Origin: Eubacteriales bacterium
Lineage (GTDB): Bacteria; Bacillota; Clostridia; Oscillospirales; CAG-272
DNA: 40,251 bases
Assembly (NCBI GenBank): GCA_045660565.1
Contig: JAZRDX010000089.1
Span: 1-40,251, forward strand
Direction of reading: 5' to 3'
Positions within the stretch are counted from its first letter, which is position 1; each line of letters starts with the position of its first letter. The position numbers were made by a program, and so were the translations under genes. Under the pieces are notes generated by a model. The model did not search any database, was not told where the DNA came from, and worked only from the letters and a program-made list of their open reading frames with translations. Below are positions 79 through 37,774 of this stretch, one piece after another.

Positions 79-1830
79 ATGAAAAAGAATAAGAAAAATA
101 TTGAATGCAAGACCGTTACAGATTACTTACGACCTTTTAAGCTTTACGTAGTACTCACCGTAACGGTTAAATTTATAGCTACCTTTGCCGAGCTTTTCCT
201 GCCCTCCACCCTTTCCTATATGGTGGACACGCTCGCTCCTGCAAAGGACGTTAAAAAGATGATTGTTTTCGGTCTTATAATGGTCTTTTGCTCACTTGTC
301 GCGCTTATAGGAAATATAACCGCGAACAGAATGGCGGCGAAAACGGCAAGTAAGATAACGCAGAAGCTAAGGCACGACGTGTACGTAAAGACTCTTTCGC
401 TTTCCTGCCAAAAGACCGACGAATTTACCGTTCCCACCCTTATTTCGAGACTTACCAGCGATACGTATAACCTACATAATATGCTCAGAATGGTACAGCA
501 GGGCGGCATAAGAGGACCTATAATCGTAATAGGCGGTATAATTATAACGTCCTTCCTTGACAAAGCCTTAACGCTTATTCTTGTCGCGCTTATGCCTGTC
601 GTTTTTACCATAATTTTCTTTATATCAAGAAAGGGTGTAAAGATATACGGAAACGTCCAGAAAACCTCGGATGAGATGGTTTCGGTGCTTCGTGAAAACA
701 TGGAGGGTGTACGCGTTATAAAGGCACTTTCCAAAACCGAATATGAGAGAGCTCGTTTTGCGGACGTAAACGAAAGAATATACAGAAACGACAGAAAAGC
801 GGGTATAACCACAGGTCTTTCCGGCCCCGTTATGAACGTCTTTTTAAACCTCGGCTTCTGCGCGGTTATACTTGCGGGTGCGTTCAGAGTTAATGCCGGA
901 AAAACTCAGCCGGGCGTCATTATTGCCTTTTTAAGCTATTTTACCCTTATACTTATGGCTATGATGATGATAAACAGAATTTTTATGCTTATAAGTAAGG
1001 GTGTTGCCTCGGGAAAAAGACTTAACGAGGTTCTTGCCGCTCCGTCCGATGATGATTTTACACCCGTAAGCGACGGAGAAGAGAATATCGCTTCCCCGTA
1101 TCACGTTTCCTTTGAAAACGTTACCTTTTCCTATCTGAAGAAAAGAAATAACCTTGAAAATCTTTCCTTTACTCTTAAAAAGGGAGAGACGCTCGGAATT
1201 ATCGGCTCGACCGGTTCGGGTAAAACAACAATAATCAATCTCCTGTTAAGATTTTATAAAGCCGACAGCGGTGAGATAAAAATAAACGGTAAAAGCGTTA
1301 ATGAGATACCGAGAAAAGAGCTTTATAAAATGTTTGGCTCAGCGCTTCAGACCGATTTTCTTATGTCGGATACCATAAAGGAAAATATACGCTTTGAAAG
1401 AGAAATTTCCGACGAGGAGATAACCTACGCCGCGGTAAATGCGCTTGCCGACGGATTTATAAAGGATAAGACCGATGGGTATGAGCATCTTCTTGACGTT
1501 AAAGCAGCTAATCTCAGCGGAGGACAGAAGCAGCGGCTTCTTATCGCGAGAGCTATTGCAGGAAAGCCCGATATACTGATACTTGACGACTCCTGTAGCG
1601 CGCTTGACTATAAGACCGACTCGCTTTTACGCGGAAATCTCGGAAAGGATTACGCGGAGAGCACTAAGATTTTGATTGCTCAGAGAGTAAGTACGGTTAT
1701 GAATGCCGATCTTATAATCGTAATGGACGACGGCGACGTTGTCGGTATAGGTAAGCACACCGCTCTTATGGAGAGCTGCGAGCTTTACCGTGAAACTGCA
1801 AACGCGCAGATGTCTGAGGGAAATAAGTAA
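79..1830 (+). CDS. ABC exporter half-transporter (TMD-NBD fusion); the partner carrying degenerate catalytic residues
   Basis: ORF 25..1830. I prefer the ATG at 79 (GGAG at 71-74) over the TTG at 25. Hydrophobic N-terminal half. Walker A GSTGSGKTT, signature LSGGQKQR. Walker B ILILDD is followed by S instead of the catalytic E. Switch loop reads IAQRVST (Q in place of H). Confidence 0.9.
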   Translation: MKKNKKNIECKTVTDYLRPFKLYVVLTVTVKFIATFAELFLPSTLSYMVDTLAPAKDVKKMIVFGLIMVFCSLVALIGNITANRMAAKTASKITQKLRHDVYVKTLSLSCQKTDEFTVPTLISRLTSDTYNLHNMLRMVQQGGIRGPIIVIGGIIITSFLDKALTLILVALMPVVFTIIFFISRKGVKIYGNVQKTSDEMVSVLRENMEGVRVIKALSKTEYERARFADVNERIYRNDRKAGITTGLSGPVMNVFLNLGFCAVILAGAFRVNAGKTQPGVIIAFLSYFTLILMAMMMINRIFMLISKGVASGKRLNEVLAAPSDDDFTPVSDGEENIASPYHVSFENVTFSYLKKRNNLENLSFTLKKGETLGIIGSTGSGKTTIINLLLRFYKADSGEIKINGKSVNEIPRKELYKMFGSALQTDFLMSDTIKENIRFEREISDEEITYAAVNALADGFIKDKTDGYEHLLDVKAANLSGGQKQRLLIARAIAGKPDILILDDSCSALDYKTDSLLRGNLGKDYAESTKILIAQRVSTVMNADLIIVMDDGDVVGIGKHTALMESCELYRETANAQMSEGNK

Positions 1831-1850: not shown

Positions 1851-3653
1851 ATGAATAAAGCAAATAACGTGCCGGACCGTTCCGGTAGAGGAGCATCTAT
1901 GGAAAAGCTCAGCTCCGAAAGAAAAAAGGCAGTTGTTTTCCGTCTATGGAAATATCTTAGCCAAATGCGTCTGCCCTTAATCATAATAGGCATAGTGGTT
2001 ATTACGAGTAACCTCTTTGCGCTTATCGGGCCGAAGCTTTCCGAGCCTGCGATAAACGCGATAAAGCCTGGAGCGGTTGATTTTGATACCGTTTTCTACT
2101 ACGTAAGTCTTATGGTTATCTTTTACGTTGCCTCTGCGGGACTTTCGTTTTTACAGTCCTTTCTTATGACGACGGTAAGTAAAAGAATCACCTTTAACAT
2201 ACGGCGCGACCTTTTTGAAAAGCTTTCGCGCCTGCCTGTAAAATTCTTCGACACGCATCAATCGGGTGAAATCATAAGCACAATGTCATACGACGTTGAT
2301 ACCGTAAGCGCATCTCTTTCGGCAGACCTTATAGCTATATGTACCGCGCTTATAACGGTTACGGGTTCGTTTATTATGATGCTCACCATTTCGAGAATCC
2401 TCGTTCTGGTGTTCGTTGTAACGATACCGATGTCGATTATATTTTCCCGTTACAGAGCAAAAAAGGGTAGACCGCTCTTCAGAGAGCGCTCGGGTAAGCT
2501 TGGGGCAATGAACGGCTTTGCCGAGGAATCTATAGGCGGATTTCGTACTATAAAGGCATACAACAAGGAAGCGGAGTTTACCGCGCGCTTTGACGTCAAA
2601 AACGACGCGGCAAGCGACGCATACCACCGCTCCGACAGACATTCCTGCATCGCGGGTCCGTCGGTTAACTTTATAAACAACCTCTCCCTTGCGTTCATCT
2701 CCTTTTTCGGCGCGCTTCTTTACCTTTATTCTCCCGAAACGCTGACGCTCGGAGCAATATCGTCATTCGTTCTTTATTCGAGAAAATTTTCGGGCCCGAT
2801 AAATGAGATCACTAATATATACAGTGAAATACAGTCAGCTCTTGCGGCGGGAGAGCGCGTTTTCCGTCTTATGGACGAAAAGGAGGACACCCCCGATAGA
2901 GAGAACGCGACCGACGCGCCTATAACCAAAGGAGAGATTGAGTTTCAGAACGTTAAATTCGGTTACACCGAGGATAAGGTTATAATCAAGGATTTCAGTT
3001 TAAAGGTATCACCGGGCAGCGTTATAGCGATAGTAGGGCATACGGGTGCCGGCAAAACCACGATAGTTAATCTGCTTATGAGATTTTACGACGTAAACGG
3101 CGGACGGATACTTATTGACGGGATTGACCTACGCGACAGAAAAAGAGATGAAATGCGAAAAGCGTTTACTATGGTGCTTCAGGACACCTGGCTCTTTAAC
3201 GGAAGCGTGTACGATAATATAGCTTACGGCAGTGAAAACGTAACAGAGGATGCGGTAAGAGCTGTTGCGGAAAGAGCGAAGATAAACGGGTTTATCGAGG
3301 CGCTTCCAAACGGCTATCATACCGAAATAACCGATAACGGAACAAATATCTCAAAGGGACAAAAGCAGCTGCTTACCATAGCGAGAGCGATGCTACCCAA
3401 AAGCGTAATACTGATACTTGACGAGGCAACCTCAAACGTAGACACGAGAACCGAGGCAAAGATAAGCGAGGCGATGTGTAAGCTTATGGAGGGTAAGACA
3501 TGCTTTGTTATCGCGCACAGGCTTTCTACGATACAGAATGCGGACCTTATTGTTGTAATGAAGGACGGAGAGGTGGCGGAAAGCGGAAAACACGAGGAGC
3601 TGCTAAGCAGAAACGGTGTTTACGCAGAGCTTTATTATTCGCAGTATAAATAA
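1851..3653 (+). CDS. ABC exporter half-transporter (TMD-NBD fusion); the partner with canonical catalytic residues and a non-canonical signature
   Basis: ATG at 1851 lies about 5 nt after AAGGAGAGG (1837-1845). Walker A GHTGAGKTT, Walker B ILILDEATS, switch IAHRLST. The signature reads ISKGQKQL instead of LSGGQ. Starts 20 nt after the previous gene, so probably co-transcribed. Confidence 0.9.
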   Translation: MNKANNVPDRSGRGASMEKLSSERKKAVVFRLWKYLSQMRLPLIIIGIVVITSNLFALIGPKLSEPAINAIKPGAVDFDTVFYYVSLMVIFYVASAGLSFLQSFLMTTVSKRITFNIRRDLFEKLSRLPVKFFDTHQSGEIISTMSYDVDTVSASLSADLIAICTALITVTGSFIMMLTISRILVLVFVVTIPMSIIFSRYRAKKGRPLFRERSGKLGAMNGFAEESIGGFRTIKAYNKEAEFTARFDVKNDAASDAYHRSDRHSCIAGPSVNFINNLSLAFISFFGALLYLYSPETLTLGAISSFVLYSRKFSGPINEITNIYSEIQSALAAGERVFRLMDEKEDTPDRENATDAPITKGEIEFQNVKFGYTEDKVIIKDFSLKVSPGSVIAIVGHTGAGKTTIVNLLMRFYDVNGGRILIDGIDLRDRKRDEMRKAFTMVLQDTWLFNGSVYDNIAYGSENVTEDAVRAVAERAKINGFIEALPNGYHTEITDNGTNISKGQKQLLTIARAMLPKSVILILDEATSNVDTRTEAKISEAMCKLMEGKTCFVIAHRLSTIQNADLIVVMKDGEVAESGKHEELLSRNGVYAELYYSQYK

Positions 3654-32562: not shown

Positions 32563-33858
32563 TTACTTGTTGTTAAGGCAAGCAATACCGGGAAGCTCGA
32601 TTCCTTCAAGGAATTCAAGAGATGCTCCGCCACCGGTAGAGATGTGAGTCATCTTGTCAGCAAAGCCGAGCTTTTCAACCGCTGCCGCACTGTCTCCGCC
32701 GCCGATGATGGAGATAGCTCCGCTCTCAGCAACTGCGGAAGCAACAGCCTCGGTACCCGCTGCGAAGTTCTTCCACTCGGAAACGCCCATCGGTCCGTTC
32801 CATACAACGGTGCCTGCGCCCTTGATAGCGTTTGCAAAGAGCTCGCGGGTTGCAGGACCGATGTCAAGTCCCATCCAGCCGTCCGGAATGTCGTCGGAAT
32901 TTACTTCCATATATTCGGTGTTCTCGTCGTAACCCTTACCTACTCTGTTGTCAACGGGGAGAAGGAAGTTAACACCCTTAGCCTTAGCCTTAGCCATCAT
33001 CTCGTTTGCAAGATCAATCTTGTCAGTCTCGCAGAGAGAGGTTCCAACAGTGTGGCCCTGAGCCGCAAAGAAGGTGTATGCCATACCGCCGCCGATGATA
33101 AGGGTATCAACCTTTTCAAGAAGGTTGTTGATAACACCGATCTTATCGGAAACCTTAGCGCCTCCGAGGATTGCAACGAAGGGACGAGCCGGGTCGGCAA
33201 GAGCCTTACCCATTATCGAAATTTCTTTTCCGATAAGGTATCCGCAAACTGCGGGGAGGTAATCAGCAACTCCTGCGGTGGAAGCGTGTGCTCTGTGAGC
33301 GGAACCGAATGCGTCGTTTACGTAAACGTCTGCGTAGGAAGCAAGCTCCTTTGCAAAATCAGCGCCGTTCTTGGTCTCTCTTGCGTCAAAACGAACGTTC
33401 TCAATAAGAACAGCCTCGCCTTCCTTAAGAGCCGCAACCTTTGCCTTAGCATCGGGACCTATGATGTCCTCAGCGAAGGTTACCTTGTCGCCGAGAAGCT
33501 CGTTAAGTCTGTCAGCAACGGGCTTAAGGGGGAATTTTTTCTTGTCGTCGAGAGCCTTTGCAAGGAAGTCAGCCGTAGCTGCTGCCTGCTCAGCCTCGGG
33601 AAGAGCCTCAACCTTCTGCTTTTCCTTCTTTGTAAGACCGAAGCCCTCGGTAAGAATGCTGTGGGGCTTGCCCATGTGAGAGCAGAGGATAACCTTTGCA
33701 CCCTTGTCAAGGAGATACTTAATTGTGGGGAGTGCGCCTACAATTCTCTTGTCGGAGGTGATAACTCCGTCCTTAAGCGGTACGTTGAAATCGCAGCGGA
33801 CGAGAACCTTCTTGCCTGCAACGTCAATGTCTTCGATTGTTTTCTTGTTGTACATCAT
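32563..33858 (-). CDS. pgk: Phosphoglycerate kinase (with an internal insertion of about 35 aa)
   Basis: 431 aa. [54 protein letters not shown]. Confidence 0.95.
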
Positions 33859-34179: not shown

Positions 34180-35235
34180 ATGGGGGCAGAAATGTATACA
34201 AAACTTGACGTGAACGGTCTTTATAAAAAAGATGTGTTTAAAAACATTGCTTTTTCGCTTGAGCGCGGAATTCTTTGTATTCTTTCAAAAAAATCCGAAA
34301 GAAGCTCGGCGCTTCTTGACTCGCTCTCCGGTGTAAAAAAAGCCGACGGAGGAGAGATTATCGGGAATGATAACGCGGCATATTTGTCAAAGGGCTCGCC
34401 GCTTCCGGGATATCTTACCGCAGGGGAATACCTTCGTTTTGTTTTAAAGATAAAAAAAGAAGCGGAGATTCCGGACAGCGCGATTGAGATCACCGAAGAT
34501 TTCAGTGAAAAATCAATAGTAACGCTCTCGCCGCTTGAAAAGCTTTCGCTCGGCATCGCGGCATCTCTTATAGGCAACCCTGACTTTATAGCCTTAGAAG
34601 AGCCATACAGCAATTTAACCTTTGATGAATATGGGGATTTTAAGCAGCTTATCATTTCCGCTTCCGAGCAAGTACCGATTATATTTTCATCATCTTCCGT
34701 TTTTGAGTGCAAGGAAATAAGTGATAAAACGCTTGTGCTTTCTACAGGAAATCAGATTTATTTCGGGGACACAAAAACGCTTTTTGAAACGGAAATCAAT
34801 GAAACGGACGTTTGTTGCCTTGTTAAAGGCGATAAAGAGACGGTAATTGCGGCTTTTGAGCGTTATAGCCCCGAAATTGAAGAAACCGTAAGAGAGAATG
34901 TTTTTTTGGTTACCGTGAAAAGCGTTCCGATGTTTCGTGCCGCGGAAACAAGAAGCAGAATCAAGAAGCTGCTTTCAAAAGCAAGACTTTCGCTGCTTGA
35001 AATAAAATCGGAAAAGGAAGCACTGCTTAATATAATAGGCGAGCTTTCCGAAAGCGATAGAAAAAAGCGCGCTGAGTTTGATGAAAAAAAAGCGGTACAA
35101 ACTATAAAACTGAACCGCTCCCTCGTTGCGTTCAATCATGACGAAGAGGATGAAGAGGAAGCCGACACCGTAGACGAGGACGGAGACGAAGGCTTCAAGT
35201 CTGAAGAAGATGAAAAGTTCTCTGAAAATGAATAA
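34180..35235 (+). CDS. ABC-type nucleotide-binding-domain homologue with all catalytic motifs degenerate (GldA-like position), plus a C-terminal domain and a polyacidic tail
   Basis: 351 aa. The start could be the ATG at 34180 or at 34192 (GGGGG lies between them). The NBD scaffold is recognisable, but it reads SKKSERSS at Walker A, LSPLEKLS at the signature, FIALEEP at Walker B and FSSSS at the switch. Confidence 0.65.
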   Translation: MGAEMYTKLDVNGLYKKDVFKNIAFSLERGILCILSKKSERSSALLDSLSGVKKADGGEIIGNDNAAYLSKGSPLPGYLTAGEYLRFVLKIKKEAEIPDSAIEITEDFSEKSIVTLSPLEKLSLGIAASLIGNPDFIALEEPYSNLTFDEYGDFKQLIISASEQVPIIFSSSSVFECKEISDKTLVLSTGNQIYFGDTKTLFETEINETDVCCLVKGDKETVIAAFERYSPEIEETVRENVFLVTVKSVPMFRAAETRSRIKKLLSKARLSLLEIKSEKEALLNIIGELSESDRKKRAEFDEKKAVQTIKLNRSLVAFNHDEEDEEEADTVDEDGDEGFKSEEDEKFSENE

Positions 35236-35293: not shown

Positions 35294-36157
35294 ATGAAAC
35301 CTGTTTATTTTCTTACGCTTAAATCTTTTTTGCGTAACATAAAGACATATGTGTTTCTTGCGGTTATGTTTTTAGCGGAGGGTTTTTTCCTTACTTATAT
35401 TAATTTTAATAATCAGTACTCCGCTATAGAATATTCGCTTGAATTTATAGAAATAGTATTAATGCTTGCGCTTCCGCTCATAACGGCTGAGCTGTTCTCG
35501 GCAGATAGGGAAAGCGGGTTTGAAAAAACGCTTTTTGCTTTCGGTGTACCGAAAACGTCGTTTTATTTCGGAAAGGCTCTGGCTACTCTTACCGTCTTTG
35601 CCGTTCCGTATCTGCTTTTAGTTATCGCTCCGTTTATTTTCGACGTGTTTGGAGTTGTAAATTTTGCTGCGGCGTTTGCATCGGTTTTTGCATATTTTCT
35701 TGTGGGTACAGCTCTTATATCCGTGTGTATATTTATTTCCTTATCGGTAAAAAAGAGACTTCATTCCTATATTATATCCTACGCCGTTATGGTCATTGTT
35801 TATTTATTCGGAATTTTCGCCTCGGCAGTGCCTGTAACTCGCGGCTTTAGCTTGCTTCTCTTGACTGTCACCGCGGTACTTGTCGCGGTAGCGATTTATC
35901 TTTTTACAAAATCTTCCCTTATATTCGGCGGATTTTTCTGCCTTGTTGAAGCGCTGTTTATTATGTTTTATTTCATAACGCCAAAGGCGTTTGCCAAAGC
36001 TTTCCCGTTGCTTTTGGAGCTTCTTTCGCCCTGCTCATCTCTTAATACGCTTATATACGGTCCTTTTGATTTAGCGGAGATAGTACACCTTGTGCTTTTC
36101 ACCGCGGTGTTTGCACTTATTTCGTTTGTGCAGCTGTATAGAAGAAAGTATGAGTAA
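35294..36157 (+). CDS. ABC-2-type permease-like membrane protein (GldF-like position)
   Basis: 287 aa, about 6 TM helices. Second gene of the operon. Confidence 0.6.
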   Translation: MKPVYFLTLKSFLRNIKTYVFLAVMFLAEGFFLTYINFNNQYSAIEYSLEFIEIVLMLALPLITAELFSADRESGFEKTLFAFGVPKTSFYFGKALATLTVFAVPYLLLVIAPFIFDVFGVVNFAAAFASVFAYFLVGTALISVCIFISLSVKKRLHSYIISYAVMVIVYLFGIFASAVPVTRGFSLLLLTVTAVLVAVAIYLFTKSSLIFGGFFCLVEALFIMFYFITPKAFAKAFPLLLELLSPCSSLNTLIYGPFDLAEIVHLVLFTAVFALISFVQLYRRKYE

Positions 36158-36176
36158 AGGAAAGGGGGATAAAGAA

Positions 36177-37670
36177 ATGTTTTATGATAAGCTTTCCCGT
36201 AAAACGGGAGAAAAAAACGCGGCGCTTATAATTATTTTTTCGGTTGTTTTAATTGCGGCGCTCATACTTGTCGGAGTGAAACTTATTCCGACGGTTTATA
36301 CAAAGCTTGATCTTTCCGCAAATTCTATGTATACCCTTTCTCCCGAAACGGAAAATCTCATCGCCTCTGTTGATAAGGAGATTATAATTTACCTTATCGC
36401 TTCTCCCGGAGAGGAAAACGAGGGGGTAAAAACGTTTTTGGAAAGGTATGCCGGTAAAAGTAAGAATATAACGTTAAAAACGCTCGATCCGGTAGCCGAC
36501 GCCGAGGAGATTTACAAGTATTCGGGTTCAACGCCACCGTCAAACAGTATAGTGGTCAAGACCGAAAACCGTTACAAAATGATTCCGTACTACGATTTGT
36601 TCTACTACGGAGAGGACGCGTATAACTACGCATATATGATTTACGCGCAGTACCGTAACGCAGGTTATATAGATTCAAGCCTCAGCTTTGACAGCTATCT
36701 GAAAAAATACGCCGTATACGACGGCTGTTACTCAGGTTACGAATACGAGGAAAGTATAAACGCGGCTATAAGGTACGTTACCTCGGACAGCCTTAAAAAA
36801 ATTTATCTTCTTGCAGGACACGAGGAGGATTCCCCGTCCTTTGACGTCTATAATCACATTACAAATTTCGGTTTTGAGCTTACCAGGATCAACGCCGAAA
36901 AGATAGATATTCCGTCCGATGCCGACCTGCTTCTTCTTTTCCCGAATACCGATATCTCCACGACAGAAAAGAATAAGCTTTTGGAGTATATGAAAAACGG
37001 CGGAAAGATACTTCTCGTTACAGCGCAGGGTGGAGAATACGGAACCCTTAATACGTTACTTAAGGAATACGGCGTTGTGAGCGACGGTAAATACCTTTGC
37101 GAGGATAACGAAAATTATAATTTTGAAAAAATACCCGCGTATACCATTCCCGATGTTTCCGACGAGGGACTTGCCGAGCTTCTTGACGAGCGTGCCGCGA
37201 CCGTTCTTCTTGCGGGAACGACCGGAATAACGCTTACCGAGACACAGCCTGCCGGTATTACGGTTAAACCGCTTCTTACGACCTCGCCCGAAAGCTATAC
37301 CACGGACGATATTGTTGACTATAAATTCGATGCAGCAAAAGATGTTAGAAAGGTAAGATACACCGGTGTATCCGCTACGAACGAAAACGGAGGCGGATTT
37401 GTATGGATTTCGGCACCGAGCGTGCTTTACGAGGATTATACCGTTTATACGAACGGCGGCAACCTGCTTACCTTGACGTATTATATAAACTCACTTACCG
37501 AGAATACCTATCCTGAGCCTGTTCCGGCGGTAATGCTTACGTCTGCAAAGACAGATGTGCCTAAATGGTTTATATATACCTTTGCCTCGGTTTTCTGCGG
37601 AGCCGTGCCGCTTGGTCTTGTCGGCTTTGGCTTGTTACGGAAAAGACGCCTCTATTCTGAAACGGTATAA
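36177..37670 (+). CDS. GldG-like auxiliary component of an ABC-2 transport system (anchored at both ends)
   Basis: ORF 36090..37670. I prefer the ATG at 36177 (GGGGGA 7 nt upstream); the ATG at 36150, which overlaps the upstream stop, is an alternative. N-terminal TM (AALIIIFSVVLIAALILVGV), a large extracytoplasmic region, and a C-terminal TM (FASVFCGAVPLGLVGFGLL) followed by RKRR. Confidence 0.6.
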   Translation: MFYDKLSRKTGEKNAALIIIFSVVLIAALILVGVKLIPTVYTKLDLSANSMYTLSPETENLIASVDKEIIIYLIASPGEENEGVKTFLERYAGKSKNITLKTLDPVADAEEIYKYSGSTPPSNSIVVKTENRYKMIPYYDLFYYGEDAYNYAYMIYAQYRNAGYIDSSLSFDSYLKKYAVYDGCYSGYEYEESINAAIRYVTSDSLKKIYLLAGHEEDSPSFDVYNHITNFGFELTRINAEKIDIPSDADLLLLFPNTDISTTEKNKLLEYMKNGGKILLVTAQGGEYGTLNTLLKEYGVVSDGKYLCEDNENYNFEKIPAYTIPDVSDEGLAELLDERAATVLLAGTTGITLTETQPAGITVKPLLTTSPESYTTDDIVDYKFDAAKDVRKVRYTGVSATNENGGGFVWISAPSVLYEDYTVYTNGGNLLTLTYYINSLTENTYPEPVPAVMLTSAKTDVPKWFIYTFASVFCGAVPLGLVGFGLLRKRRLYSETV

Positions 37671-37742: not shown

Positions 37743-37774
37743 AAAAAGACGAAGAAAAAATCTTCGTCTTTTTT
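37743..37774. terminator. Bidirectional terminator (serves the minus-strand ACT gene)
   Basis: 11-bp stem AAAGACGAAGA (37745-55) / TCTTCGTCTTT (37761-71), A5 loop. A-runs and T-runs flank it. Confidence 0.8.

What the first reader, a model, noticed from the sequence alone, without database searches (positions are those of the whole stretch)
34180..35235. ABC nucleotide-binding-domain homologue with every catalytic motif replaced but the ORF intact (candidate pseudo-ATPase)
The first gene of a three-gene operon aligns along its N-terminal ~205 aa with ABC-2/GldA-type NBDs. The functional residues are gone at every motif. The Walker A position reads SKKSERSS (expected GxxGxGK[ST]; no Gly, no Lys). 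The Q-loop region reads YLSKGSP (no Gln). The signature reads LSPLEKLS (expected LSGGxxQR). Walker B reads FIALEEP (Asp replaced by Glu). The switch region reads FSSSSVF (no His). The spacing of hydrophobic core segments is preserved and there is no frameshift or stop. This suggests a retained non-catalytic NBD rather than a decaying gene. The NBD is followed by a C-terminal domain of roughly 115 aa and a polyacidic tail (DEEDEEEADTVDEDGDEGFKSEEDEKFSENE). No other NBD gene is present in the operon.
Basis: seen in the sequence. Interest (0 to 1): 0.6.

Follow-up and report, generated by a model that had tools for sequence, protein, structure and literature searches.

The report
Non-catalytic ABC transporter ATPase subunit
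In one genus of uncultured gut Clostridia, the ATP-burning subunit of a three-gene membrane transporter has lost every residue needed to bind or split ATP, yet selection has kept it intact in many species, so it probably now serves as a structural part rather than a motor.

Summary
ORF 34180-35235 is a true homologue of ABC nucleotide-binding domains (profile-profile E 3.7e-38). The A-loop, Walker A, Q-loop, signature, Walker B Asp, D-loop and H-loop are all replaced, and Pfam ABC_tran does not detect it.

It is the first gene of a NBD / GldF-like permease / GldG-like auxiliary operon that is common in this bacterial family. All 20 orthologues examined from other genera carry near-invariant canonical motifs. 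All 11 operon-bearing genomes of the window's genus are degenerate.

Trees show a nested series:
- canonical forms;
- one intermediate;
- a sister clade that keeps Walker A but has a natural Walker B Glu-to-Gln change and no signature or H-loop;
- the window's clade, with everything lost.

At least 27 clusters (50% identity) of such proteins exist in public data. dN/dS is about 0.15, the frames are intact, the fold-determining residues are kept, and the NBD fold is predicted confidently. This is a retained pseudo-ATPase, not a decaying gene.

Its role as a scaffold or adaptor of the membrane complex is inferred. It is a new variant of a known kind and moderately interesting.

The parts
34180..35235 (+). 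Gene for the degenerate (type II) ABC NBD homologue, 351 aa. The likely true start is the ATG at 34192 (347 aa).
   Evidence: ORF. Start context. Homology to canonical NBD orthologues by hhalign, E 3.7e-38. No Pfam ABC_tran.
34219..34239 (+). Former A-loop region (LYKKDVF). The aromatic A-loop Tyr and about 4-5 residues are deleted relative to the canonical KKYGxxxAV.
   Evidence: Alignments. The Tyr is kept in 0 of 8 type II representatives.
34285..34308 (+). Former Walker A (SKKSERSS in place of GPNGAGKS). It has no Gly and no Lys in register.
   Evidence: In both models the following helix starts at residue 39, which leaves a 2-residue loop.
34381..34401 (+). Former Q-loop strand (YLSKGSP in place of GYLPExPP). 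Tyr68 and the downstream EYL helix are conserved.
34525..34548 (+). Former signature motif (LSPLEKLS in place of LSKGYRQR). Only Leu-Ser is kept.
34585..34605 (+). Former Walker B (FIALEEP in place of IILDEP; Asp became Glu). The D-loop that follows reads SNLT, with its Asp lost.
34684..34704 (+). Former H-loop/switch (FSSSSVF in place of SSHIL; His became Ser).
34801..35097 (+). C-terminal alpha/beta domain (residues 208-306). It is homologous to the C-terminal domain of TM_1403 and to the regulatory domain of ABCA transporters.
   Evidence: AlphaFold secondary structure and pLDDT. Profile hits to 4yer (positions 2-312) and to ABCA7, ABCA3 and ABCA1 through position about 320. Pfam DrrA1-3_C in 2 family members.
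35098..35235 (+). Disordered acidic tail. It holds two short conserved motifs: VAFNHD at its start and EKFSENE at its end (ESTLFS in other members of the clade).
   Evidence: pLDDT below 50. Motif conservation.
35294..36157 (+). GldF-like ABC-2 permease, 287 aa, the presumed docking partner.
   Evidence: PF12698 E 3.4e-6 (below the Pfam cut-off) and TIGR03518 E 1.4e-4. Syntenic in all orthologous loci. dN/dS 0.17-0.19.
36174..37670 (+). GldG-like auxiliary protein (ABC_transp_aux plus DUF7088), anchored at both ends. A TTG at 36090 is an alternative start.
   Evidence: PF09822 49 bits (cut-off 34.7), PF23357 38.5 bits, TIGR03521 E 4.8e-11. ORF.
37743..37773 (+). Intrinsic-terminator-like hairpin (13-bp stem followed by a T run) that closes the three-gene operon.

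Best explanation
The gene encodes a retained, non-catalytic and most likely nucleotide-free descendant of the ATPase subunit of a conserved three-gene envelope system (NBD, GldF-like ABC-2 permease, GldG-like auxiliary protein).

In the ancestor of this genus the subunit first lost hydrolysis: the signature motif, the Q-loop Glu, the catalytic Glu and the H-loop His went. In the window's clade it then also lost the Walker A P-loop and the A-loop.

The clade keeps four things:
- the RecA-like and helical-subdomain fold;
- the Q-loop strand and EYL helix, which in solved ABC transporters line the groove for the permease's coupling helix;
- the ABCA/TM_1403-type C-terminal domain;
- an acidic tail with a short conserved motif.

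I therefore propose that it still docks on the permease dimer as a structural or adaptor subunit. It would hold the GldF/GldG-like complex together, or link it to a cytoplasmic partner through the tail, while the complex no longer runs an ATP-driven cycle.

Shown here: homology, motif loss and its order, retention across the clade, purifying selection, and the predicted fold. Inferred: absence of ATP binding, docking on the permease, and the scaffold or adaptor role.
For: Homology and register: hhalign E 3.7e-38. The family profile hits ABCA and TM_1403 NBDs.

Motif loss:
- Pfam ABC_tran matches 21 of 38 family members, and none of the 17 fully degenerate ones.
- None of 8 type II representatives keeps the A-loop Tyr, the three central Walker A residues (Gly-Ala-Gly) or its Thr, the Q-loop Glu, the signature K, G, Q and R, or the H-loop His. 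The Walker A Lys letter recurs in 1 of 8.
- The fold residues F22, G56, L133, P159, I185 and L300 are kept in 8 of 8.

Lineage pattern:
- 20 of 20 orthologues outside the genus are canonical; 11 of 11 operon-bearing genomes of the genus are degenerate.
- In 401 family genomes from 97 genera, only this genus scores E <= 1e-93 against the degenerate profile; the next best is 2e-52.
- Trees give canonical forms, then P0061, then sister clades type I and type II, each with SH-aLRT 99.

Selection:
- dN/dS against the G005 orthologue is 0.14-0.18, and 0.13-0.15 for the core, compared with pgk at 0.03 and the permease at 0.17-0.19.
- The frames are intact in 11 genomes that are only 17-35% identical to one another.
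- At least 27 degenerate representatives at 50% identity exist.

Fold:
- AlphaFold pLDDT is 85.5 with all rows and 80.2 with degenerate rows only.
- The Foldseek top hits are NBDs: NosF, TM_1403, MalK, LptB and ABCA.

Operon:
- The NBD, permease and GldG-like genes are syntenic in the related loci examined (in 9 of the 11 for which all three genes were sought; two short stretches did not show the third gene).
- A terminator follows the third gene.

Tail motif: it is conserved from the canonical orthologues (Y[KT]P[LM]F in 15 of 19) to the degenerate clades (ESTLFS).
Against: - There is no biochemical or expression data.
- dN/dS rests on one pair with dS near 1.
- The operon evolves fast in this genus. 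NBD identity within the genus is 27% at the median, against 52% between canonical orthologues of different genera. The permease has kept only 45% of the columns that are near-invariant in canonical orthologues.
- Two congeners (93% and 95% complete) show no operon. The system is therefore under weaker constraint and can be dispensed with.
- In the window's own subclade the replaced P-loop (S-K-K-x-E-R-S-S) is basic and conserved, so binding of some anionic ligand cannot be excluded.
- An ATPase encoded elsewhere could serve the permease. The genome is 91.6% complete and several NBD fragments lie at contig ends.
Confidence: 0.7

Rival explanations
1. Heteromeric rescue. The permease is still an ATP-driven transporter. 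It is energised by a canonical NBD encoded elsewhere, for example the paralogous GldA-like NBD on contig C21. The degenerate protein pairs with that NBD or regulates it, as the degenerate half does in asymmetric ABC exporters.
For: - The genome carries a complete paralogous system with a canonical NBD: NBD, ABC-2 permease, GldG-like protein and a DUF4340 protein.
- It also has 34 places that pass the ABC_tran cut-off.
- Degenerate sites that regulate an active site are well documented in heterodimeric exporters (PMC7756269, PMC12038006).
Against: - The paralogous NBD sits in its own operon with its own permease. It is also present in the two congeners that lack the degenerate operon, so it is not dedicated to this system.
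- In a mixed dimer both composite sites would be crippled. One lacks Walker A, and the other lacks the signature contributed by the dead partner.
- No orphan canonical NBD was evident among complete contigs.
Confidence: 0.12
2. Ligand-sensing domain. The former nucleotide pocket now binds a different small molecule or anion, and the protein gates or regulates the permease in response to it.
For: - In the window's subclade the replaced P-loop S-[KR]-[KN]-x-E-R-S-[SA] and the segment IFSSSSVFECKEIS are strongly conserved.
- The sister clade (type I) keeps Walker A and the A-loop together with a natural Walker B Glu-to-Gln change. This suggests a stage that binds nucleotide but does not hydrolyse it.
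Against: - Across type II as a whole, the P-loop replacement is not conserved and is often acidic (SPADKDKN, SNREEDIR, SERENDAL, GADEKVIN).
- That argues against a common anion-binding site.
- The conservation within the subclade may simply reflect its low divergence (54-82% identity).
Confidence: 0.12
3. Decaying relic. The gene is a pseudogene in the making, still open by chance, and the operon is on its way out.
For: - Evolution of the whole operon is accelerated.
- The operon was not found in two congeners.
Against: - dN/dS of 0.14-0.18 is far below 1.
- Frames of about 340-415 codons are intact in 11 genomes that have diverged to 17-35% identity, and in at least 27 clusters at 50% identity.
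- Hydrophobic core residues, structural Gly and Pro residues and the tail motif are conserved.
- The fold is predicted confidently from degenerate sequences alone.
Confidence: 0.03

Closest known systems
Canonical orthologues of the same three-gene operon in other genera of the same family of Clostridia (uncharacterised)
   Same: - Same gene order: NBD, GldF-like permease, GldG-like protein.
- Same C-terminal domain.
- Same acidic tail with a short aromatic motif.
   Different: They carry near-invariant GPNGAGKST, YLPE, LSKGYRQR, ILDEP and SSH and match Pfam ABC_tran. The window protein has none of these motifs.
GldA/GldF/GldG gliding-motility ABC transporter of Bacteroidota (TIGR03522, TIGR03518, TIGR03521)
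   Same: - The best NCBIfam match for each of the three proteins.
- Same three-component architecture: an ABC-2 permease plus a doubly anchored ABC_transp_aux protein.
   Different: - The scores are far below the equivalog cut-offs (35.9 against 402.6; 21.9 against 288.5; 42 against 389.9).
- The host is a Gram-positive-type Clostridium with no gliding or type IX secretion context.
- GldA is a canonical ATPase.
Degenerate nucleotide-binding sites of heterodimeric ABC exporters (TM287/288, BmrCD, TAP1/2, CFTR, MRP1, MsRv1273c/72c; PMC7756269, PMC12038006)
   Same: Natural loss of the catalytic Glu, the H-loop His and signature residues in an NBD that is kept for a non-hydrolytic role. The type I sister clade, with LDQP, resembles such sites.
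   Different: - Those systems keep one fully active site, and the degenerate site still binds ATP.
- Here the single NBD gene of the operon is degenerate, so both sites of the expected homodimer are dead.
- In type II even Walker A is gone.
TM_1403 (PDB 4yer) and ABCA1/3/4/7 NBDs with their C-terminal regulatory domains
   Same: They are the closest solved relatives of the family by profile (ABCA4 E 1.9e-83; 4yer E 6.8e-56) and by fold. They share the NBD plus an alpha/beta C-terminal domain.
   Different: They are all canonical ATPases, and they lack the acidic tail motif.
ABCB5-beta, a half-transporter whose N-terminal NBD remnant lacks Walker A (PMC10828454, PMC3029322)
   Same: An ABC protein that retains an NBD piece without a P-loop.
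   Different: It is a truncated isoform of a eukaryotic gene, and it still has a complete second NBD. It is not a full-length NBD that has been remodelled across a whole lineage.
SbmA/BacA-type transporters (my own knowledge, not tested here)
   Same: An ABC-type membrane domain that works without ATP hydrolysis.
   Different: They have lost the NBD altogether. They belong to a different transmembrane-domain fold class (type IV-like) and have no auxiliary protein.

Membership tests
ABC transporter nucleotide-binding domain (Pfam PF00005 ABC_tran) | Score at or above the Pfam gathering threshold (25 bits) | tested here: not met
   No Pfam hit at E <= 1. The whole-genome PF00005 scan does not hit the ORF. 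None of the 17 fully degenerate relatives matches.
ABC transporter nucleotide-binding domain (Pfam PF00005 ABC_tran) | Walker A GxxGxGK[ST] | tested here: not met
   SKKSERSS is in register with GPNGAGKS.
ABC transporter nucleotide-binding domain (Pfam PF00005 ABC_tran) | Signature LSGGQ (LSKGxxQR in this subfamily) | tested here: not met
   LSPLEKLS; only Leu-Ser is kept.
ABC transporter nucleotide-binding domain (Pfam PF00005 ABC_tran) | Walker B hhhhDE, D-loop Asp and H-loop His | tested here: not met
   IALEEP (Asp became Glu), SNLT (no Asp), SSS (no His).
ABC transporter nucleotide-binding domain (Pfam PF00005 ABC_tran) | RecA-like core plus helical subdomain fold, and common descent with canonical NBDs | tested here: met
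   hhalign E 3.7e-38 to canonical orthologues. Foldseek E about 2e-15 to NosF, TM_1403, MalK and LptB, also with a model built from degenerate rows only. The fold is predicted, not solved.
GldA (TIGR03522 equivalog) of the GldAFG system | Score at or above the equivalog cut-off (402.6 bits) | tested here: not met
   35.9 bits, E 5.5e-9, residues 65-289 only.
GldA (TIGR03522 equivalog) of the GldAFG system | Operon partners: a GldF-type ABC-2 permease and a GldG-type ABC_transp_aux protein | tested here: met
   At the domain level only. PF09822 scores 49 bits and PF23357 38.5 bits, both above their cut-offs. PF12698 scores 26.8 bits, below its cut-off. The TIGR equivalog scores are far below their cut-offs.
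Pseudoenzyme (pseudo-ATPase) | Clear homology to an active enzyme family, with the catalytic residues missing | tested here: met
Pseudoenzyme (pseudo-ATPase) | Maintained by selection (conserved across species, dN/dS well below 1) | tested here: met
   dN/dS 0.14-0.18. Eleven genomes of the genus and at least 27 clusters at 50% identity.
Pseudoenzyme (pseudo-ATPase) | Measured lack of ATP binding and hydrolysis | not testable with these tools
   This needs purified protein.

The most novel reading that the evidence does not exclude
This genus preserves a complete natural series within one orthologous ABC-2 system: an ATPase, then an ATP binder that cannot hydrolyse (natural Walker B Glu-to-Gln, no signature, no H-loop), then a nucleotide-free NBD. 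The GldF/GldG-like membrane complex continues to function with a homodimer of dead NBDs. That would make it the first complete prokaryotic ABC transporter assembly whose only NBD is nucleotide-free. The NBD would have been turned into a cytoplasmic scaffold or adaptor that acts through its regulatory domain and the conserved acidic-tail motif.
Probability: 0.4. Interest if true: 0.75.

Novelty: new variant of a known kind. Interest (0 to 1): 0.6.

Why it matters
ABC transporters are defined by ATP-driven NBD dimerisation. The known degenerate sites always sit beside an active one. This lineage differs: the sole NBD of a conserved transporter operon has lost hydrolysis and then nucleotide binding, yet it stays under selection together with its permease and auxiliary protein.

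That offers a natural experiment on what an NBD contributes besides energy, such as assembly, conformational locking or partner recruitment.

It also gives a handle on the unknown function of the widespread GldF/GldG-like systems outside Bacteroidota. The stepwise intermediates (P0061-like, type I, type II) are ready-made constructs for comparative biochemistry.

On the practical side, these proteins escape Pfam ABC_tran, so automated annotation is likely to mislabel them and leave the permease looking like an orphan.

Tried and rejected
- **Misalignment.** Joint MAFFT alignments, hmmalign and hhalign of two separately built alignments all reject this.
- **Strain-specific decay.** The genus-wide and metagenome-wide survey rejects it.
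- **Fold prediction as an artefact of canonical rows in the alignment.** A second model built from degenerate rows only rejects this.
- **Second NBD in the operon or the window.** There is none in the operon. The two other NBDs of the window (79-1827 and 1851-3650) are fused TMD-NBD exporter genes 30 kb away.
- **Orphan canonical NBD in the genome.** None is evident on complete contigs. Fragments at contig ends leave this open.
- **The search for related loci with the degenerate alignment.** It failed because no stretch was conserved enough. The single-protein scan returned one close relative, a MAG named Eubacteriales bacterium.
- **The listing of cluster members.** It gave no source names.
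- **Literature searches.** They found only single degenerate sites in heterodimeric exporters and ABCB5-beta. They found nothing on GldAFG-like systems in Firmicutes or on fully dead NBD homodimers. The library does not hold all journals, so this is not proof of novelty.
- **pgk as a clock.** Identity to the window's pgk is 64-74% for most genomes of the genus (96% for the closest) and 66-86% across the family, so it does not separate the two levels. The rate comparisons are therefore only semi-quantitative.
Full report
**Observation**

The window has an uninterrupted ORF at 34180..35235 (+, 351 aa). Two more ORFs follow closely on the same strand, at 35294..36157 and about 36174..37670. A strong terminator-like hairpin lies at 37743-37773. 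Upstream, pgk is divergently oriented.

The likely true start is the second ATG at 34192. It has a GGGGG ribosome-binding site 5 nt upstream, and the database version of the protein is 347 aa.

**Is it an ABC NBD, and is the register right?**

Pfam finds nothing in the protein even at E <= 1. A whole-genome scan with PF00005 finds 34 places over the cut-off in this genome, but not this ORF. NCBIfam gives only weak hits, the best being GldA (E 5.5e-9, 35.9 bits against a cut-off of 402.6).

The downstream proteins are:
- a GldF-like ABC-2 permease (PF12698 just below its cut-off; TIGR03518 weak);
- a GldG-like auxiliary protein (PF09822 and DUF7088 above their cut-offs).

I collected orthologues by synteny: 10 further genomes of the same genus and 20 genomes of other genera. 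I then built separate alignments of 15 fully degenerate sequences (A4) and 19 canonical ones (A3).
- GPNGAGKS with SKKSERSS
- GYLPE with AYLSK
- LSKGYRQR with LSPLEKLS
- ILDEP with ALEEP
- SSH with SSS

The A-loop Tyr (deleted) and the D-loop Asp are also gone.

**Distribution and order of events**

The operon is common in the family. A GldG-like gene was found in 70 of 121 sampled genomes.

All 20 orthologues examined outside the genus carry near-invariant canonical motifs. All 11 operon-bearing genomes of the genus are degenerate. Two of them (G003, G008; "type I") keep the A-loop Tyr and Walker A (GDDGAGKTT). They have LDQP or LDGA in place of LDEP, and no signature, Q-loop Glu or H-loop His. 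The other nine ("type II", which includes the window) have lost everything.

Pfam ABC_tran matches 21 of the 38 aligned proteins, a count that equals the 19 canonical plus the two type I proteins.

A profile of the degenerate clade was searched against 1.84 billion representatives. This recovered at least 27 further clusters at 50% identity: 8 of type I, 18 of type II and one intermediate. The intermediate, P0061, has intact Walker A and Walker B, the signature LSESYKKR and no His.

A maximum-likelihood tree of 46 sequences places P0061 as sister to all the degenerate forms. Type I (10 rows) and type II (23 rows) come out as sister clades, each with SH-aLRT 99. By parsimony, hydrolysis residues were lost first, on the common stem. 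Walker A and the A-loop were lost once, on the type II stem.

A scan of 401 family genomes from 97 genera with the degenerate profile shows a clean gap. Only genomes of this genus score E <= 1e-93, and the next best score is 2e-52. Two congeners (93% and 95% complete) show no operon, either next to pgk or anywhere else with the GldG-like query.

The only named close relative is a gut MAG labelled "Eubacteriales bacterium".

**Is it maintained by selection?**

Against the G005 orthologue (71% identity), the values are:

| Gene or region | dN/dS |
|---|---|
| Whole NBD gene | 0.14-0.18 |
| Dead core, residues 1-205 | 0.13-0.15 |
| C-terminal domain | 0.10-0.13 |
| GldF-like permease | 0.17-0.19 |
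| pgk | 0.03 |

dS is about 1.

The frames of about 340-415 codons are open in all 11 genomes, although these have diverged to 17-35% identity.

Of 93 columns that are near-invariant in the canonical orthologues, the catalytic ones are kept in 0 of 8 type II representatives, apart from chance recurrence of single letters. Fold-determining residues (F22, G56, L133, P159, I185, L300 in canonical numbering) are kept in 8 of 8, and Y78, E93 and P151 in 6 of 8.

AlphaFold2 gives a confident NBD plus C-terminal alpha/beta domain, with pLDDT 85.5 when all rows are used. As a control, a model from type II rows only gives pLDDT 80.2 with the same secondary-structure elements. Foldseek returns ABC NBDs for both models: TM_1403/4yer, NosF, MalK, LptB and ABCA1/4/7, all at E about 2e-15. 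In both models the helix after the first core strand starts at residue 39, so only two residues remain where the eight-residue P-loop should be. This is an inference from a model.

A decaying pseudogene is therefore rejected.

**Signs of a wider functional shift**

Evolution of the whole operon has sped up in this genus.
- Median pairwise identity within the genus is 27% for the NBD and 29.5% for the permease.
- Between canonical orthologues of different genera it is 52% and 45%.
- pgk identities are similar at the two levels, so this comparison is only semi-quantitative.
- The permease keeps on average only 45% of the 25 columns that are near-invariant in canonical orthologues.

**C-terminal tail**

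The tail is informative. In 15 of 19 canonical orthologues it is an acidic run that ends in Y[KTRH][PS][LMIQ]F. The degenerate clades carry ESTLFS at the equivalent place, and the window's subclade carries x-F-S-E-[ND]-[ED]. A further motif specific to the genus, hydrophobic-x-F-[SN]-H-[DE], sits at the start of the tail.

The paralogous NBD elsewhere in this genome has a basic tail and no such motif. The tail is thus an ancestral feature of this orthologue group, and it outlived the ATPase.

**Other ATPases**

The genome holds a complete paralogous system on contig C21: a canonical 323-aa NBD, an ABC-2 permease, a GldG-like protein and a DUF4340 protein. That NBD has its own permease. A similar canonical NBD frame also turned up in the other genomes of the genus, including the two that lack the degenerate operon.

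No orphan canonical NBD is evident on complete contigs. Several NBD fragments lie at contig ends, and the assembly is 91.6% complete.

**Mechanism**

Best explanation (confidence 0.7): the protein is a retained, non-catalytic and most likely nucleotide-free NBD. It still docks on the GldF-like permease dimer. Through its ABCA/TM_1403-type C-terminal domain and the tail motif, it scaffolds the cytoplasmic side of the GldF/GldG-like complex or connects it to a partner.

Shown: homology, motif loss and its order, clade-wide retention, purifying selection, predicted fold. Inferred: no ATP binding, docking on the permease, and the scaffold or adaptor role.

Rivals:
- rescue by an unlinked canonical NBD (0.12);
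- a re-purposed ligand pocket (0.12), suggested by the conserved basic SKKxERSS loop of the window's subclade but not supported across type II, where the loop is variable and often acidic;
- a decaying relic (0.03).

**Comparison with what is known**

The closest characterised system by name is GldA/GldF/GldG of Bacteroidota, but all three equivalog cut-offs are missed by a wide margin. The closest solved relatives are TM_1403 and the ABCA NBDs.

The closest concept is the degenerate nucleotide-binding site of heterodimeric exporters (PMC7756269, PMC12038006). In those, an active site always remains and the degenerate site still binds ATP. ABCB5-beta lacks Walker A in a truncated NBD remnant (PMC10828454).

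I found no description of a lineage-wide, fully degenerate sole NBD of an ABC-2 system in the library searched. That library is incomplete.

**Verdict**

The protein fails every defining sequence feature of ABC_tran, yet it is an NBD by descent and by predicted fold. I therefore file it as a pseudo-ATPase derived from an ABC NBD: a new variant of a known kind. Interest is 0.6.

Noticed in passing
window 35098-35235; L009-L032 (NBD C-termini): The canonical orthologues of this NBD end in an acidic run followed by a short motif Y[KTRH][PS][LMIQ]F (15 of 19). The degenerate clades keep ESTLFS at the same place, plus a motif specific to the genus (hydrophobic-x-F-[SN]-H-[DE]). It looks like a partner-binding short linear motif whose partner is unknown.
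   Followed up: partly
L033 (G000 contig C21) 1239-6890: A paralogous, apparently complete system lies in the same genome: a canonical 323-aa NBD, a 242-aa ABC-2 permease, a 520-aa GldG-like protein (ABC_transp_aux plus DUF7088) and a 621-aa DUF4340 protein.
   Followed up: partly
L015 (G008) 1728-2750; L016 (G003) 1856-3100; P0029, P0034, P0035, P0038, P0041, P0042, P0044: The sister clade (type I) keeps the A-loop Tyr and Walker A but has a conserved natural Walker B Glu-to-Gln change (LVLDQP). It has no signature and no H-loop His. It may be an NBD that binds ATP without hydrolysing it.
   Followed up: partly
P0061 (representative library): A single intermediate representative branches below all the degenerate forms. 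Walker A (GPLGAGKST) and Walker B (LDEP) are intact, the signature is weakened (LSESYKKR), and the H-loop His is missing.
   Followed up: partly
L037 (G011 C11) and L038 (G007 C11): Two species of the same genus have other genes (including Na/Pi-cotransporter-like genes) beside pgk where the operon lies in the window and five congeners. No GldG-like gene was found anywhere in these two genomes with this query, so the operon may have been lost there.
   Followed up: partly
window 35294-36157 and orthologues: The GldF-like permease of this genus has lost several residues that are invariant in canonical orthologues; six columns are kept in none of the 9 representatives. Glu46 and Pro61 are kept in all. 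The shift in constraints therefore affects the whole operon.
   Followed up: partly
window 32563-33858 (pgk): In the family scan, many pgk orthologues align to the window's Pgk only from residue about 107 onward, while others align over the full length. This fits an insertion or a variable segment in the N-domain of this Pgk.
   Followed up: no
ESM Atlas clusters: Two of the nearest Atlas clusters are Bacillota 'putative ABC transporter ATP-binding protein' clusters (75 and 50 members, about 280 aa) in which no Pfam family is common. They may be further families of degenerate NBDs.
   Followed up: no
L009, L011, L017, L021-L026, L030-L032 (NBD starts): Many canonical orthologues appear to start at a TTG codon (reading L-IEVKNL, that is M-IEVKNL) rather than at an ATG.
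   Followed up: no
window 79-1827 and 1851-3650: Two adjacent fused TMD-NBD ABC exporter genes (583 and 600 aa) form a likely heterodimeric exporter pair. They are unrelated to the finding.
   Followed up: no
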